DNA of 64,000 nt from a bacterium (GTDB lineage Bacteria > UBA8248): assembly GCA_965213625.1 (NCBI GenBank), contig CBDBZU010000004.1, forward strand, positions 704,001 through 768,000, written 5' to 3'. Shown piece after piece: positions 14,283 to 60,792 of this stretch. The position numbers and the translations under genes are program-made. How positions within the stretch are numbered: the stretch's first letter is position 1; each line of letters opens with the position of its first letter. Under the pieces are notes generated by a model, which ran no database searches, was not told the origin of the DNA, and saw only the letters and a program-made list of their open reading frames with translations.

Positions 14283-14945
14283 CTAGCTTCCGCCTGCCTG
14301 TTGCGCCTCGCCCTCTTCGATCGCGCGAGCGAGCGGTCCGCTCAGGTGCGAGACGGGGCAATCGCCATAGATGCGCCGCGATTCCTCCTGGCTCACCAGC
14401 CTGCCGTCGGGGGAGAACATGGGGTAGAAATCGAGCGTTCTGAAAAAGGTGTGGTAGCCCACGTTGAAGCCGATGAAAGAGCCGAGTTCCACGATTTCCT
14501 CGTCCGAGTAGTGTTCTCTTAGCCTCGCGTAGAAGGCCTCGTCGATCTTCTCGGGCTCGGAATCCATGAGTTCGCTGTATTCGAGAGCCAGTTTTTCGGC
14601 GTCGGAGAAATTCTCGCTGTCGCGCCAGTTGTCGATGCCGTCGTCTATCAACTCTTCCGTCAGGCCCGCCTGCTTCGCCGAAGCAGAACGCACGTTCCCT
14701 CAGTAGTTGCAAAAGGCGCGGCGCGATAGCTGAACACGGATGATTTCTTTCAACTTGTGGTCGATGACGCCGGTGTTGAACACCGTGCCCCAGGCGAGAT
14801 ACATCGATTTCGCCAATTCCTCGTTGTGACCCTGCATGGCGTGAAAAGCGGGATCGGGCGCGCGGTGCTTGAGCGCCTTGTTGAGGAAAGGTGCCAGCTT
14901 CGTCTTCTTCAGATCCTCGATGTCGAGCATGGTGATATTGGACAT
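14283..14945 (-). CDS. AhpD/CMD-like selenoprotein, CxxU motif (TGA 14700-14702 read as Sec), 220 aa
   Basis: ORFs 14700..14945 and 14283..14693 are in frame: TGC AAC TAC TGA GGG AAC GTG = C-N-Y-U-G-N-V; the joined protein aligns end to end with the adjacent paralog. Confidence 0.88.
14670..14686 (-). promoter_or_regulatory. candidate bacterial SECIS hairpin
   Basis: CTGCTTC-GGC-GAAGCAG, 7-bp stem starting 14 nt after the TGA; loop G at +21. Confidence 0.7.
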
Positions 14946-14993
14946 ATGTGTTCTCCCAAAGATGACGTACAGGATGAATTTTCGGTTATCGCC

Positions 14994-16361
14994 TCAGGAT
15001 CCGCTTTCCGCCTGAACGCGGCGCAATGCGGTGTCGAGAACAGATGCTGCACGCTCGGCTTCCTCTTCGGTGAATACGAGCGGCGGACTGAGGGTCACGG
15101 TGTTCGAGGGTCCTGCGGCGATGCCGGCATTCTTACCGAAGATCACGCCTTGCTCTTTCGCATAGGCCAGGACCTTCGCCGTGGCCGCTGTGGAAATGGG
15201 CGAGCCGTCTTCTTCAATCAATTCCACGCCCCAGATGAGGCCCACACCTCGCACGTCGCCCACGCAGGGGATGTCCGAGAGTTTGCCCAAAAGCCCGCCG
15301 AGATAAGCACCCACCTTGGCGCCGCGCGCGGGCAACTCCTCGTCCATCATGATCTCGAGGTTCTTTAGCGAGGCAGCACAGGCGGCGGGATGTCCGCCAT
15401 AAGTGTTTATCTGCAGGAACCCCGAATCGCCCTCGGCGTTCAAGGCTTCGAATATCTCGTTTGTGGTCGCCGTCGCCCCGATGGGGAGATAGGCGCTACT
15501 CAGCCCCTTGGCCATTGTCATGATGTCCGGCTCGATTTCGTACAGATCGGAAGCGAACAACTCCCCCGTTCGCCCGAAGCCGGTGATGACCTCATCGGCG
15601 ATGAACAACACGCCGTGGTTCCGGCAAACCTCGCGCATGCGCTTCAGGTAATCCGCAGGCGGGGGGATCACCCCGCCGCCGCCGATGACGGGCTCTGCGA
15701 TGAACGCCGCCACGGTCTCGGGGTCTTCGTAGCGGATGACCTCATCCAACTCATCCGCACACCTGCCGGCGAGTTCTTCTTCCGTCTCCGCGTTGCTGCG
15801 GTAGAAATAGGGCGCGCTGACGTGAATCACGCCCGGCAGGAGCGGCTCGAACATCGCACGCCTGAGCGTTTGGCCGGTGAGACTCGCGCCCCCGATGGTC
15901 GCTCCGTGATAGCCCTGGTGCCTGGCGATGATCTTGTATCGACTCCCGCCGTTCAGTCGCCCGTAGGCGCGGGCGATCTTGATGGCGGTGTCCACGGCTT
16001 CTGAACCCGAGTTCACGAACCAGACGCGCTCGACCCCCTCAGGCAACAAGGATGCGAGGCGCTCTGCGAGCCTGGCTGCGGGAGGATTCACCTGCGTCAG
16101 CGGATAGTAGGCCAGCTCGAGCATCTGGTCGTACGCCGCCTTGGCGACCTCATCGCGCCCGTATCCGATGTTCACGCACCAAAGGCCCGCCATGGCGTCG
16201 ATGTATTCCTTGCCGGAGGCGTCCTGTATGGTCGAGCCACTGGCTTTGACCACGACATCGAGGGGATTTCCCTCAATCCCGGAATGGTTCATGAGCGGAT
16301 GCCAGACGTGCTCCTTGTCCATCGTCCGCAGGGATTCGGCTTCGGCTATGGCTGGATTCAT
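14994..16361 (-). CDS. class III PLP aminotransferase (omega-amine:pyruvate type)
   Basis: YID.MAGLWCVNIGYG, NSGSEA, YHG.T, FIADEVITGFGRTG, MAKGLSSAY.P. Confidence 0.92.
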   Translation of the reverse strand: MNPAIAEAESLRTMDKEHVWHPLMNHSGIEGNPLDVVVKASGSTIQDASGKEYIDAMAGLWCVNIGYGRDEVAKAAYDQMLELAYYPLTQVNPPAARLAERLASLLPEGVERVWFVNSGSEAVDTAIKIARAYGRLNGGSRYKIIARHQGYHGATIGGASLTGQTLRRAMFEPLLPGVIHVSAPYFYRSNAETEEELAGRCADELDEVIRYEDPETVAAFIAEPVIGGGGVIPPPADYLKRMREVCRNHGVLFIADEVITGFGRTGELFASDLYEIEPDIMTMAKGLSSAYLPIGATATTNEIFEALNAEGDSGFLQINTYGGHPAACAASLKNLEIMMDEELPARGAKVGAYLGGLLGKLSDIPCVGDVRGVGLIWGVELIEEDGSPISTAATAKVLAYAKEQGVIFGKNAGIAAGPSNTVTLSPPLVFTEEEAERAASVLDTALRRVQAESGS

Positions 16362-16455
16362 GAAGGTCCCCTCTCGGGTTTCAACGGTTCGGTATCCACT
16401 TCATCGATGCGAAAATCTTAATGCGCAAACGGGTGCGGATCAACCGCCGGAAGAA

Positions 16456-59193: not shown

Positions 59194-59357
59194 GGACGTG
59201 TTTTACGGAATGCCATTTCGCAAACCCTCCTCGTGGTCGATGCGCCCAATATCAAATGGGGCTTTCCCAATCGAAGAAGGGCTCCGGAAATATGCCGTGT
59301 ATTCTGCTTGTCTCATCCGTTCAGGTATGAGTCAACCGGAAACCCACGCGCTCTTCT

Positions 59358-59954
59358 TCACTTGAACGGCATGATGGAGCCGGTGCGCTTCATGGGTTTC
59401 TCCATCCGCCAGAGCTGCCTTTCGAGCGCCTCTTCCGAGCACGTCCCGAGGGCCAGGGAGCGCGCCATGTGGCGGCTCGGGAGCCTGCGTCCGCCCCGCG
59501 TGAGGCGGGAGGGTTCTGCGCCGATGGTGAGGCACTTGTCGGGATGCGCCTTCAAGCTCAGGCGGTAGTTCTCGAATCGCCAGTTCTGAAGCGCCGTGCC
59601 GTCGCATTTTTTGAGGGTGAGCTTGGCACCGTCCGTAGCGGAAGCCGCCGTGACGCACAGGCCGTATTCGGGCATCCGTAGCATGCCATTCTTTACGGCG
59701 GCGGGGTCGAAATGCTCGTCCAGGTTCCAGATGCCCTCTTTGCAGGTGTGCACGCTGAGGGCGGCTGTGGTTCTCACACGATCGCGGTGCCCGGGAATGT
59801 CGATGCAGTGAAACCTCGGCTCATCGAGGGGATAAAACGCCTTGATGAAGACGACTTCCTTTTCCATGGCATGCGCCTGATGCGGTGTGAACACGAGCGC
59901 CGGAAGAACCGCCAGACACGCCACTACCACACACCGACCGATACGCCGAATCAT
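59358..59954 (-). CDS. secreted ricin-B-type beta-trefoil protein
   Basis: Signal peptide; CIDI, LCV.A....GA.L.L..CD....QNW, CLT...C.....QLW; AAGGAG RBS. Confidence 0.7.
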   Translation of the reverse strand: MIRRIGRCVVVACLAVLPALVFTPHQAHAMEKEVVFIKAFYPLDEPRFHCIDIPGHRDRVRTTAALSVHTCKEGIWNLDEHFDPAAVKNGMLRMPEYGLCVTAASATDGAKLTLKKCDGTALQNWRFENYRLSLKAHPDKCLTIGAEPSRLTRGGRRLPSRHMARSLALGTCSEEALERQLWRMEKPMKRTGSIMPFK

Positions 59955-60237
59955 TTTACGCTCCTTATCGAAAAGGCGGGAGGCGGCAAGTACGCCCGCT
60001 GGGTTGATAATGTTTTCCGCGATGCTTTCATGCAGGGTGGGTGGTGTCAATGAGGGGGTCGATATCGGCCTCCCGGCGTCATTCGGGAGCCTTCCCGGTT
60101 CGGATAGATCGGCCAGCGACACAAGTTGAATACCGATTCAGCCGAATGCGACGGCCCGGCGACCGTCAATGGTTTGTTGAGGCAACCGGTTATCAATGAT
60201 AGCATCACGAATCTCATCATCTTGGAAGGGGTCTTTC

Positions 60238-60792
60238 ATGGAGAAGACTCTGGTGATTCTCGATCCCTCGGGAATACCACCGTTGATCGAAAAGGTGCGG
60301 CCCGCCGCCCGCCCCGCCTCCCACGAGGGCATTCGCTTAGGCCTTCTCGACAACACGAAACCAAACTCCGACAAGCTGCTCTTCCGGCTGGAAGAGCGCT
60401 TAAGCGGAAAATTTCCCATCGCGTCGTTCACGCACTACCGCAAGGGTGGCAGCGCGCTCCCCCTGGAGGAGGACCTGATCGAGCGGATGGCGAAGGAGTG
60501 CGACTTCGTGGTGAACGCGGTGCCCGACTGAGGGTCCTGCACGCCGTGGAGTATCCACGACGCGATCGAGCTCGAACAGCGCGGGCTGCCCACGCTCACC
60601 ATCATCACGGACATGTTCGAGGCCTTCGGCCGCAAGAAGGCGCGGGCCCTGGGCTTTGCGGGCCTGCCGCTCGTCTCGATCCCCCATCCCATCACCGGAA
60701 TACCGCTCGATACGGTGCATACCCACGCGGACGGGATTTTTGAAAGCGTGGCGGAGTCCCTGACGCAGACGCCTACGGAAGACGAAGAATGA
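60238..60792 (+). CDS. second UGSC-family selenoprotein (TGA 60529-60531 read as Sec), 184 aa
   Basis: CCC GAC TGA GGG TCC TGC ACG CCG TGG AGT ATC CAC GAC = P-D-U-G-S-C-T-P-W-S-I-H-D; read-through frame stays open to TGA 60790-60792, which overlaps the next ATG. Confidence 0.9.
60545..60559 (+). promoter_or_regulatory. candidate SECIS hairpin
   Basis: CGTGGA-GTA-TCCACG at +14..+28; loop G at +20. Confidence 0.7.

What the first reader, a model, noticed from the sequence alone, without database searches (positions are those of the whole stretch)
14283..60792. Four hidden selenoprotein genes from three families in one 64-kb window
Seen: four genes are each broken by a single in-frame TGA exactly at a redox-motif position: CNY-U (14700), D-U-GSC (19929), V-U-PLC (50639) and D-U-GSC (60529). 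The frame stays open and homologous on both sides. Each TGA is followed by a hairpin whose apical G lies 19-21 nt downstream. Established: AhpD-like CxxU, UGSC and PrdB/GrdB UxxC are described bacterial selenoprotein families, and bacterial SECIS elements lie directly 3' of the UGA. Inference: this density points to an unusually large selenoproteome that standard annotation fragments. No selA/selB/selC/selD is in the window.
Basis: partly seen in the sequence, partly recalled or inferred. Interest (0 to 1): 0.85.

Follow-up and report, generated by a model that had tools for sequence, protein, structure and literature searches.

The report
Four real selenoprotein genes, known families
The four in-frame TGA codons are genuine selenocysteine codons in genes of already described selenoprotein families, in a bacterium that carries about fifty such genes, so the finding is correct but mostly ordinary for this lineage.

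Summary
All four in-frame TGAs exist at the stated places, in the motifs CNYU, DUGSC, VUPLC and DUGSC. The genome (4.15 Mb, 4 contigs) has selA, selB, selD and tRNA-Sec(UCA). The TGAs are conserved in relatives: 39 of 39 relatives with the AhpD-like gene and all 150 listed UGSC matches, and most listed PrdB-like matches. Each TGA is followed by a hairpin with compensatory base changes. Taken singly, the four hairpins fold no better than shuffled sequence.

Both UGSC genes pass the curated cut-offs. The AhpD-like and PrdB-like genes belong only to the broad Pfam families CMD and GRDB.

My lower-bound count is 48 selenoprotein genes in this genome. That matches the 48-54 published for genomes labelled Nitrospinota/Nitrospinae (PMC13326102), so the large selenoproteome is real but already reported.

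One lead goes beyond the finding. Every UGSC gene lies next to, or within 3 kb of, an uncharacterised ~360-aa partner gene, and one copy is fused to it. The pairing recurs across phyla (62 of 80 loci). A complex prediction scores 0.81 against 0.00 for the best control and places the Sec motif in the interface.

The parts
14283..14945 (-). AhpD/CMD-like selenoprotein gene (220 aa), motif E-x11-C-N-Y-U
   Evidence: Pfam CMD 26.2 bits against cut-off 23. Orthologs with one in-frame TGA in 39 of 39 relatives that have the gene.
14700..14702 (-). Sec codon (TGA) of the AhpD-like gene
   Evidence: Same column (C-x-x-U) in 21 of 21 fetched loci.
14670..14686 (-). SECIS stem-loop: 7-bp stem with GGC loop
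   Evidence: 100% of 140 cells paired, 2 pairs with changes on both sides (CG 12/UA 8; CG 19/UA 1), and 0 of 500 shuffles reach the covariation score.
13668..14273 (-). Adjacent CMD-family paralog without Cys or Sec (D-T-Y-F in place of C-N-Y-U)
   Evidence: Found directly downstream of the Sec gene in the relatives listed. Fused to it in some database gene calls (P0010, P0011, P0018, P0021).
19686..20228 (-). UGSC-family selenoprotein gene 1 (180 aa)
   Evidence: NF041046 159.4 bits against cut-off 125; PF24696 198.1 bits.
19929..19931 (-). Sec codon of UGSC gene 1
   Evidence: TGA at this column in 28 of 28 UGSC loci examined.
19899..19917 (-). SECIS stem-loop of UGSC gene 1
   Evidence: 93.1% of cells paired, 3 pairs with changes on both sides, 0 of 500 shuffles reach the covariation score.
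20256..21350 (-). Uncharacterised partner gene 1 (364 aa), directly upstream of UGSC gene 1
   Evidence: No Pfam or NCBIfam hit. 15 paralogs in the genome. AF2 model with pLDDT 84.9.
50252..51145 (-). GRDB-family, PrdB-like selenoprotein gene (297 aa), motif V-U-P-L-C
   Evidence: PF07355 42.7 bits against cut-off 22; TIGR04483 118.5 bits against cut-off 300. Found in 41 of 61 genomes, with a TGA in most listed matches.
50639..50641 (-). Sec codon of the PrdB-like gene
   Evidence: Same column in 20 of 21 fetched loci; my pattern did not find the motif in L127. A Cys homolog, L246, has CIVC here.
50604..50635 (-). Hairpin after the Sec codon: 7-bp outer stem plus 5-bp inner stem, loop CCGUGA
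   Evidence: The family-wide stem is 87.2% paired with 3 compensated pairs, but this gene's own clade breaks the two apical pairs.
60238..60792 (+). UGSC-family selenoprotein gene 2 (184 aa; an alternative ATG lies at 60196)
   Evidence: NF041046 144.6 bits against cut-off 125; PF24696 169.9 bits.
60529..60531 (+). Sec codon of UGSC gene 2
60543..60561 (+). SECIS stem-loop of UGSC gene 2
   Evidence: The G:C pair at columns 21/27 replaces the C:G pair of UGSC gene 1.
60789..61844 (+). Uncharacterised partner gene 2 (351 aa); its ATG overlaps the UGSC stop codon (ATGA)

Best explanation
All four genes are translated through their internal UGA as selenocysteine by the standard bacterial route. 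SelD makes selenophosphate and SelA converts Ser-tRNA(Sec) to Sec-tRNA(Sec). SelB delivers it to a UGA that is followed at once by a SECIS hairpin within the coding sequence. The products are thiol/selenol redox proteins in which Sec replaces one Cys of a two-residue redox motif: CxxU in a CMD/AhpD-like protein, and UxxC in two UGSC proteins and in a GRDB-family PrdB-like protein. Shown by computation here: the codons, the machinery, conservation of the TGA across relatives, covarying hairpins and family membership. Inferred: that Sec is actually inserted, and the redox chemistry.
For: Machinery: selA 564 bits, selB 388 bits, selD 333 bits (with its own in-frame TGA, in GUGSK), tRNA-Sec 75.9 bits with anticodon TCA. 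TGA is otherwise an ordinary stop: it ends 2030 of 4207 long ORFs. Conservation: the AhpD-like gene was found in 40 of 61 genomes, and the best match in each of the 39 relatives carries an in-frame TGA, at 98% down to 47% identity. All 150 listed UGSC matches have exactly 1 TGA; 71 further matches were not listed. The TGA lies in the same column in 21 of 21 (AhpD-like), 20 of 21 (PrdB-like) and 28 of 28 (UGSC) fetched loci. SECIS: compensated stems in all three families, with 0 of 500 shuffles reaching the covariation score, and set-level stability above three control sets. Cys at the U column: TGC in 5 of 62 UGSC loci from other taxa and CIVC in one PrdB-like homolog. Families. Paralogy: all 8 UGSC paralogs and all 9 paralogs of the NGCxYU AhpD group in this genome have the stop at that column and none has Cys.
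Against: There is no direct evidence of Sec insertion. Each of the four hairpins, taken alone, folds no better than shuffled sequence. No Cys ortholog of the AhpD-like gene was found among the 16 homologs aligned. Seven database proteins show W at the U column; I read these as TGA translated with code 4, but I could not inspect their DNA. The PrdB-like gene's own clade does not keep the two apical pairs of the family hairpin (6 and 7 unpaired cells). The AhpD-like and PrdB-like proteins fall below every NCBIfam cut-off.
Confidence: 0.93

Rival explanations
1. The TGAs are true stops. The genes are pseudogenes or split genes that give separate N- and C-terminal fragments.
For: Standard ORF calling yields fragments with possible internal starts, such as the GTG directly after the AhpD-like TGA. 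Many database entries are exactly such C-terminal fragments of 123-151 aa.
Against: The TGA stays in the same column in orthologs from 98% down to 47% identity, with both flanks conserved. It always falls on the redox residue. Cys takes that place in organisms whose copy has no TGA. The hairpins covary.
Confidence: 0.03
2. The organism reads TGA as a standard amino acid (Trp or Gly; code 4 or 25), or these TGAs are read through as Trp.
For: Seven metagenome homologs of the AhpD-like protein carry W at the U column.
Against: TGA is the commonest terminator of long ORFs (2030 of 4207). A tRNA-Sec with anticodon TCA and selA/selB/selD are all present. The in-frame TGAs concentrate on redox Cys positions. 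The W-bearing proteins come from contigs of 806-1319 bases, where gene callers may switch code; that last point is an inference.
Confidence: 0.015
3. The TGAs are sequencing or assembly errors.
For: None specific.
Against: The same TGA is seen in dozens of other genomes. Contigs of three runs cover 14000-21500 with 0 differences, though these runs may be the source of the assembly.
Confidence: 0.005
4. Sec is inserted, but UGA mostly terminates. The short N-terminal products would then be the main species, with selenium supply setting the ratio.
For: Competition between Sec insertion and termination is established for bacterial UGA-Sec codons (general knowledge, recalled).
Against: The C-terminal halves are as conserved as the N-terminal halves. 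Nothing here measures the ratio.
Confidence: 0.03

Closest known systems
UGSC-containing selenoprotein family (NCBIfam NF041046, Pfam PF24696; described in PMC1976440 and PMC2398784)
   Same: Both window genes score above the curated cut-offs and have the UGSC motif. As in the GOS data (255 Sec against 21 Cys forms; PMC2398784, passage read), the Sec form dominates: TGA in 56 of 62 loci and TGC in 5.
   Different: Nothing differs at the level of the family. [quoted passage not shown] My AF2 model (pLDDT 89.3) instead resembles flavodoxin-like folds (flavodoxin, azoreductase, lumazine synthase; TM 0.40-0.51), and no thioredoxin appears among the rows shown.
AhpD-like / CMD selenoproteins (CxxU; TIGR01926, NF053654, NF041238, PF02627)
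   Same: CMD domain and a CxxU motif 11 residues after a Glu.
   Different: The protein falls below all NCBIfam cut-offs (best NF053654, 67.9 bits against 310). It always comes with a downstream paralog that has D..F in place of C..U. No Cys ortholog was seen.
D-proline reductase PrdB and glycine reductase GrdB (selenoprotein B)
   Same: GRDB Pfam domain and a UxxC motif.
   Different: TIGR04483 scores 118.5 bits against a cut-off of 300 and TIGR01918 scores 52.8 against 65.45. The only GrdE/PrdA-family gene of the genome lies in a separate grdB-grdE-grdA cluster at C4:3273136-3276295. This is therefore a stand-alone 'PrdB-like' protein, of the kind counted in marine metagenomes (PMC2398784).
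Selenoprotein-rich genomes in BSepDB (GTDB UBA8248, labelled Nitrospinota/Nitrospinaceae/Nitrospinae: 54, 50 and 48 genes; PMC13326102)
   Same: My lower-bound count is 48 genes. The closest named RimO is from a MAG labelled Nitrospinae, at 95% identity.
   Different: That G000 belongs to that lineage is inferred from one protein only. I did not look the genome up in BSepDB.

Membership tests
Bacterial Sec-decoded gene | In-frame UGA at a position held by Cys or Sec in homologs | tested here: met
   Sec in relatives. Cys in UGSC homologs and in a PrdB-like homolog. For the AhpD-like gene only Sec forms were seen, plus W in 7 database proteins.
Bacterial Sec-decoded gene | SECIS hairpin directly 3' of the UGA | tested here: met
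   Covariation and the set-level test. Single-sequence energies are not significant.
Bacterial Sec-decoded gene | selA, selB, selD and tRNA-Sec in the genome | tested here: met
Bacterial Sec-decoded gene | Selenium incorporated into the protein | not testable with these tools
   Needs 75Se labelling or mass spectrometry.
UGSC family (NF041046 / PF24696) | Score above the curated cut-off and the U-G-S-C motif | tested here: met
   159.4 and 144.6 bits against 125; 198.1 and 169.9 bits against 25.
CMD / AhpD-like (PF02627) | Pfam gathering score | tested here: met
   26.2 bits against 23.
NCBIfam AhpD-type (seleno)protein families (NF053654, TIGR01926, NF041047, NF041238) | Score above the curated cut-off | tested here: not met
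   67.9 against 310, 38.9 against 81.8 and 21.2 against 110.
GRDB family (PF07355) | Pfam gathering score and a UxxC motif | tested here: met
   42.7 bits against 22; VUPLC.
D-proline reductase PrdB (TIGR04483) | Equivalog cut-off | tested here: not met
   118.5 bits against 300.
D-proline reductase PrdB (TIGR04483) | Partner PrdA (Gly_reductase family, PF09338) encoded beside it | tested here: not met
   The genome has one PF09338 gene, at C4:3274659-3275825, about 2.5 Mb from the window. The window neighbours are an MDMPI_N/SCP2 protein and a GmrSD_C-like protein.

The most novel reading that the evidence does not exclude
UGSC selenoproteins are not stand-alone redox proteins. They are the small, Sec-bearing subunit of a widespread two-subunit enzyme. 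The large subunit is the uncharacterised ~360-aa partner, with no Pfam, NCBIfam or PDB relative; it is probably the 'Unknown_1' domain seen fused to UGSC in the GOS study. Sec sits in a composite active site against the partner's invariant DGLPV(V/I)PPT motif. This lineage has multiplied the module to 8 UGSC genes and 15 partner paralogs, including one natural fusion, and has placed copies in different catabolic gene clusters: CoA-transferase III, FAH, dienelactone hydrolase and class III aminotransferase in one, and class V aminotransferase in another. That pattern suggests a set of substrate-specific Sec-dependent reductases working like protein B of the glycine and proline reductases, to whose Sec region UGSC shows a weak profile match (hhalign probability 39%, E 3.2e-4, with U aligned to U and C to C). 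Evidence: adjacency in 8 of 8 cases in this genome. In other phyla, 62 of 80 partner loci have UGSC, all 62 on the same strand and 56 of 62 within 300 nt. A fusion ORF, L032. A complex prediction on the natural Cys-form pair of Parapusillimonas granuli scores 0.81 against 0.00 for the best control; that mark was reached by 58 of 80 solved complexes and 2 of 110 mismatched pairs, the runs share at least 71% of their contacts, and the partner chain has pLDDT of at least 86. The interface includes UGSC residues 102-104 and 106-108 (the CGSC motif) and partner residues 25 and 33-36.
Probability: 0.4. Interest if true: 0.7.

Novelty: new member of a known kind. Interest (0 to 1): 0.4.

Why it matters
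For annotation: a plain ORF caller breaks about 48 genes of this genome, and the same genes in every relative. Protein databases are already full of their C-terminal fragments and of 'W' read-throughs. For biology: the four genes add nothing new in kind. However, UGSC is one of the most abundant selenoprotein families in aquatic metagenomes and still has no known function; 9 papers in the library hold both words 'UGSC' and 'selenoprotein', and the passages I read from four of them assign it none. An obligatory partner subunit, together with Cys-form pairs in cultured bacteria, would make that function testable at the bench.

Tried and rejected
Folding 60 nt after each TGA gave energies no better than shuffles. 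I therefore rejected single-sequence energy as evidence and replaced it with a set-level test and covariation.

Rfam at gathering thresholds found no SECIS family in the window, only rRNA and tRNA.

The genome-wide coding-potential scan gave 573, then 52, then 240 candidates, depending on thresholds. It both over- and under-calls; for example, the PrdB-like window gene failed the last filter. The count of 48 therefore rests on paralogy plus family searches of 30 read-through ORFs, of which 22 were accepted and 8 rejected. It is a lower bound.

Rejected candidates:
- L024, L049 and L052: no family hit.
- L025: an hsdM-like methyltransferase.
- L046: an NHLP precursor.
- L054: two genes in one frame.
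- L070 and L071: phage HI1409 family.
- L072 and L080: a junction before traL.
- Four 'PPUGG' copies.

The partner protein has no Pfam or NCBIfam hit and no PDB sequence hit below E 0.5. Foldseek best hits are class I fumarate hydratase (E 2e-5) and cyclic amide hydrolases, but with TM of only 0.18-0.28, so I assign no fold. The protein atlas gave only unnamed clusters, plus one automatically named thiol-disulfide oxidoreductase family.

PDB sequence searches for the PrdB-like and UGSC proteins found nothing usable.

Sequencing runs: no RNA holder is listed. The runs laid are contigs. Three of them are identical to the window over 14000-21500 and may be its source. A fourth, from another study, covers parts of the stretch at 90-99% identity; 185 of its difference rows were not shown, so I draw nothing from it about the TGAs.

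Supplements are closed, so I could not see Figure S1A of PMC2398784 (the UGSC/Unknown_1 fusion) or the family tables of BSepDB and deep-Sep. These may already cover the partner domain and the two families listed under Noticed in passing.

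
Full report
WHAT IS THERE. Reading TGA as U gives four uninterrupted proteins:
- A 220-aa CMD/AhpD-like protein with ...E-x11-C-N-Y-U-G-N-V....
- Two UGSC proteins, of 180 and 184 aa, with ...G-D-U-G-S-C-T... and ...P-D-U-G-S-C-T....
- A 297-aa GRDB-family protein with ...P-V-U-P-L-C....
Under table 11 the same genes appear as fragments.

THE ORGANISM CAN DECODE SEC. The window lies at C4:704001-768000 of a 4.149-Mb genome in 4 contigs (96.6% complete, 5.2% contamination). 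That genome has:
- selA (564 bits) and selB (388 bits) close together at C4:180953-185165.
- selD (333 bits) at C4:1518852, itself with an in-frame TGA in ...KAGGUGSKLG....
- One tRNA-Sec (Rfam 75.9 bits; ARAGORN anticodon TCA).
TGA is not generally reassigned: it ends 2030 of 4207 ORFs of 250 codons or more.

FAMILY MEMBERSHIP. Both UGSC proteins pass the curated cut-offs of NCBIfam NF041046 'UGSC family (seleno)protein' (159.4 and 144.6 bits against 125) and of Pfam PF24696. The AhpD-like protein passes only Pfam CMD (26.2 against 23) and is far below every NCBIfam AhpD-type model. The third protein passes Pfam GRDB (42.7 against 22) but not PrdB (118.5 against 300) or the selenoprotein-B subfamily (52.8 against 65.45). 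The genome's single GrdE/PrdA-family gene sits in a canonical grdB-grdE-grdA cluster elsewhere. There, GrdB scores 413.6 bits and GrdA 207 bits, and both have their own Sec codon. The window gene is thus a stand-alone 'PrdB-like' protein and not a proline reductase subunit.

CONSERVATION OF THE TGA. I searched 60 relatives plus the genome itself.
- The AhpD-like gene was found in 40 of 61 genomes. The best match in each of the 39 relatives has an in-frame TGA, at 98% down to 47% identity.
- The PrdB-like gene was found in 41 of 61 genomes, with a TGA in most listed matches.
- UGSC was found in 39 of 61 genomes, in 36 of 36 genomes of the same family, at 2-9 copies each. All 150 listed matches have exactly one TGA; 71 further matches were not listed.
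- After fetching 60 of these loci, the TGA lies in the same column in 21 of 21 (AhpD-like), 20 of 21 (PrdB-like; my pattern missed L127) and 28 of 28 (UGSC) loci, own copies included.
- Genuine Cys at the column exists. Five UGSC genes from other taxa have TGC in ...GDCGSC...: an Acetobacteraceae MAG, Parapusillimonas granuli, Candidimonas nitroreducens, an Actinomycetota MAG and the archaeon Natrialba asiatica. One PrdB-like homolog has CIVC.
- For the AhpD-like gene I saw no Cys ortholog. Seven full-length database homologs show W at the column. All come from contigs of 806-1319 bases, and I take them to be TGA read with code 4. Many other hits are 123-151-aa fragments that start at the GTG just after the TGA. 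This reading is an inference, because I could not see their DNA.

SECIS. Folded alone, the 60 nt after each TGA are no more stable than dinucleotide shuffles (z = 0.02, -0.83, -0.28, 0.39). Against random coding windows the four rank only at the 5th to 30th percentile. The hairpin observation is therefore weak for any single gene. Two other tests carry it.
- Set-level stability. For 46 curated Sec sites of the genome, chosen without regard to folding, positions +8 to +44 fold at a mean of -11.4 kcal/mol. The controls give -7.9 at offsets in the same genes (p=5.5e-9), -6.9 after terminal TGA stops (p=3.4e-14) and -8.7 in random coding windows (p=4e-7).
- Covariation. The AhpD-like stem (7 bp, loop GGC) is paired in 100% of 140 cells. 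Two pairs change on both sides: C:G 12 against U:A 8, linking a synonymous Ser codon to a Gln/Arg change, and C:G 19 against U:A 1. The UGSC stem is 93.1% paired with three compensated pairs, among them C:G 21 against G:C 6, which links a Trp/Cys change to the third base of an Ile/Val/Met codon. The PrdB-like stem is 87.2% paired with three compensated pairs. In all three families 0 of 500 shuffles reach the observed covariation score, and slid controls pair in 10-62% of cells.
One result goes against the reading. The PrdB-like gene's own clade does not form the two apical pairs of the family stem (6 and 7 unpaired cells). It folds instead into a longer hairpin with a six-base loop.

SIZE OF THE SELENOPROTEOME. 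I used a dicodon coding model, tblastn paralogy and family searches of 30 read-through ORFs, of which 22 were accepted and 8 rejected. This gives at least 48 selenoprotein genes with 50 Sec codons:
- UGSC: 8.
- CMD/AhpD-like: 14, one of them with UYGU.
- PrdB-like: 3.
- GrdB: 1; GrdA: 1.
- OsmC-like: 5.
- BLH-phosphatase/TIGR01244-like with HUKxxGR: 2.
- Rhodanese/MST: 2.
- AhpC-TSA: 2, one of them with UPYU.
- Deiodinase-like TUPP: 3.
- One each of Trx, ResA-like, ArsC-family, DUF3179, DsrE, CoA-transferase-like and SelD.
That is 11.6 genes per Mb, and the window's four are about five times the genome average.

Published figures, from passages I read:
- 39 in Syntrophobacter fumaroxidans and 46 in Desulfosediminicola flagellatus (PMC12013277).
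- At least 57 in the Olavius delta-1 symbiont (PMC1976440).
- 63 in a Methylomirabilota MAG (PMC13188914).
- In the BSepDB table: 63 for the delta-1 endosymbiont, and 54, 50 and 48 for three GTDB-UBA8248 genomes labelled Nitrospinota, Nitrospinaceae and Nitrospinae (PMC13326102).
The window's RimO is 95% identical to one from a MAG labelled Nitrospinae and 82% identical to one labelled Candidatus Tectomicrobia. The genome therefore probably belongs to that already noted selenoprotein-rich lineage.

WHAT GOES BEYOND THE FINDING: A UGSC PARTNER. Each window UGSC gene abuts a homologous gene of 364 or 351 aa (window 20256-21350 and 60789-61844; the second overlaps the UGSC stop codon as ATGA). 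It has no Pfam or NCBIfam family and no PDB sequence relative.
- The genome has 15 paralogs. All 8 UGSC genes have one nearby: 7 abutting and 1 within 3 kb of four tandem copies.
- L032 (C4:615835-617490) is one 551-aa ORF that fuses UGSC to the partner.
- The partner family is very large and well conserved: 7758 proteins at E<=1e-10, with the top 120 at 72-95% identity across differently labelled phyla.
- Of 80 partner loci from other taxa, 62 have a UGSC gene covering the U column within 3 kb. All 62 are on the same strand, and 56 of 62 lie within 300 nt.
- A complex prediction on the natural Cys-form pair of Parapusillimonas granuli scores 0.81 against 0.00 for the best of three controls. 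That mark was reached by 58 of 80 solved complexes and 2 of 110 mismatched pairs. The runs share at least 71% of their contacts, and the partner chain has pLDDT of at least 86. The interface contains the UGSC N-terminal YDPRG stretch and the CGSC motif (residues 102-104 and 106-108), and the partner's DGLPVVPPT stretch. This supports binding but does not show it.
- The AF2 model of UGSC (pLDDT 89.3) is a flavodoxin-like alpha/beta fold with U at the start of helix 3. Thioredoxin does not appear among the rows shown.
- The partner model (pLDDT 84.9) has no convincing structural relative; the best TM is 0.28.
- A profile comparison of UGSC with the PrdB-like family gives probability 39% and E 3.2e-4 over 96 columns, with U on U and C on C. 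This is a weak hint that UGSC is related to the Sec region of selenoprotein B.
- The GOS paper already noted a 'UGSC/Unknown_1' fusion (PMC2398784). Its figure is in a closed supplement, so I cannot say whether Unknown_1 is this family.

CONTEXT IN THE WINDOW. The AhpD-like gene and UGSC gene 1 belong to one co-directional run of eight genes on the minus strand, from 21350 down to 13668: partner, UGSC, CoA-transferase III, dienelactone-hydrolase-like, FAH, class III aminotransferase, AhpD-like (Sec), and CMD paralog without Cys. UGSC gene 2 and its partner are followed by a class V aminotransferase. The same AhpD-like-to-UGSC spacing recurs in relatives, for example G016 and G023.

VERDICT. 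The genes are new members of known selenoprotein families, in a lineage whose selenoprotein richness is already in print. The UGSC-partner module is the part worth following up.

Noticed in passing
window 1-5296 (-): An rRNA operon: 23S rRNA (1-2988, cut off by the window end), two tRNAs (3148-3220 and 3349-3422) and 16S rRNA (3745-5296).
   Followed up: no
window 13668-21350 (-): Eight co-directional genes with short gaps, including two selenoprotein genes: partner, UGSC, CoA-transferase III, DLH-like hydrolase, FAH, class III aminotransferase, AhpD-like (Sec) and a CMD paralog. This looks like one catabolic operon.
   Followed up: partly
L032 (G000:C4:615835-617490): A single 551-aa read-through ORF fuses a UGSC domain (UGGC motif) to a partner-family domain. 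A second partner paralog follows it.
   Followed up: partly
L069 (G000:C4:3346706-3347578): A CoA-transferase (PF01144, 73.7 bits) subunit-A-like gene with an in-frame TGA inside the domain. The 30 closest listed matches (63-99% identity) all keep a TGA, while the paralog groups at 37-53% identity have none; in G000 itself one paralog has Cys and one His at the column. 'CoA transferase' and PF01144 do not occur in the main text of the 2026 review PMC13188914. This may be an undescribed selenoprotein family; the BSepDB family list was not checked.
   Followed up: partly
L027 and L073 (G000:C4:315873-316535 and 3626664-3627128): Two BLH_phosphatase/TIGR01244-like proteins with Sec in the phosphatase-type loop H-U-K-x-x-G-R. 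PF04273 and DUF442 are not mentioned in the main text of PMC13188914.
   Followed up: partly
L031 and L033 (G000:C4:604727-605326 and 678114-650): Two genes with two Sec codons in one redox motif: an AhpD-like protein with U-Y-G-U and an AhpC-TSA protein with U-P-Y-U. L033 spans C4:678114-678650.
   Followed up: partly
L025 (G000:C4:207242-208696): An hsdM-like DNA methyltransferase with one in-frame TGA that is not at a redox motif. It is a probable pseudogene or a phase-variable gene.
   Followed up: no
L070 and L071 (G000:C4:3431651-3433992): Two tandem phage-associated HI1409-family genes carry a TGA at the same column (...KSLQ-TGA-YDRFD...). A third paralog has Arg there.
   Followed up: no
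G000:C4:168263, 1127235, 1242537, 2105084: Four copies of a short conserved stretch ...PLPP-TGA-GGV(E/S)ELRA..., each followed by a stable hairpin. This is probably a repeated element or a terminator rather than a Sec site.
   Followed up: no
G000:C4:861226-865494: Four partner-family paralogs in tandem, about 2.6 kb upstream of a UGSC gene.
   Followed up: no
proteins P0005-P0009, P0012, P0030: Public protein collections hold read-through versions of the AhpD-like selenoprotein with W at the Sec position, and many C-terminal fragments. This is a systematic annotation artefact for this family.
   Followed up: partly
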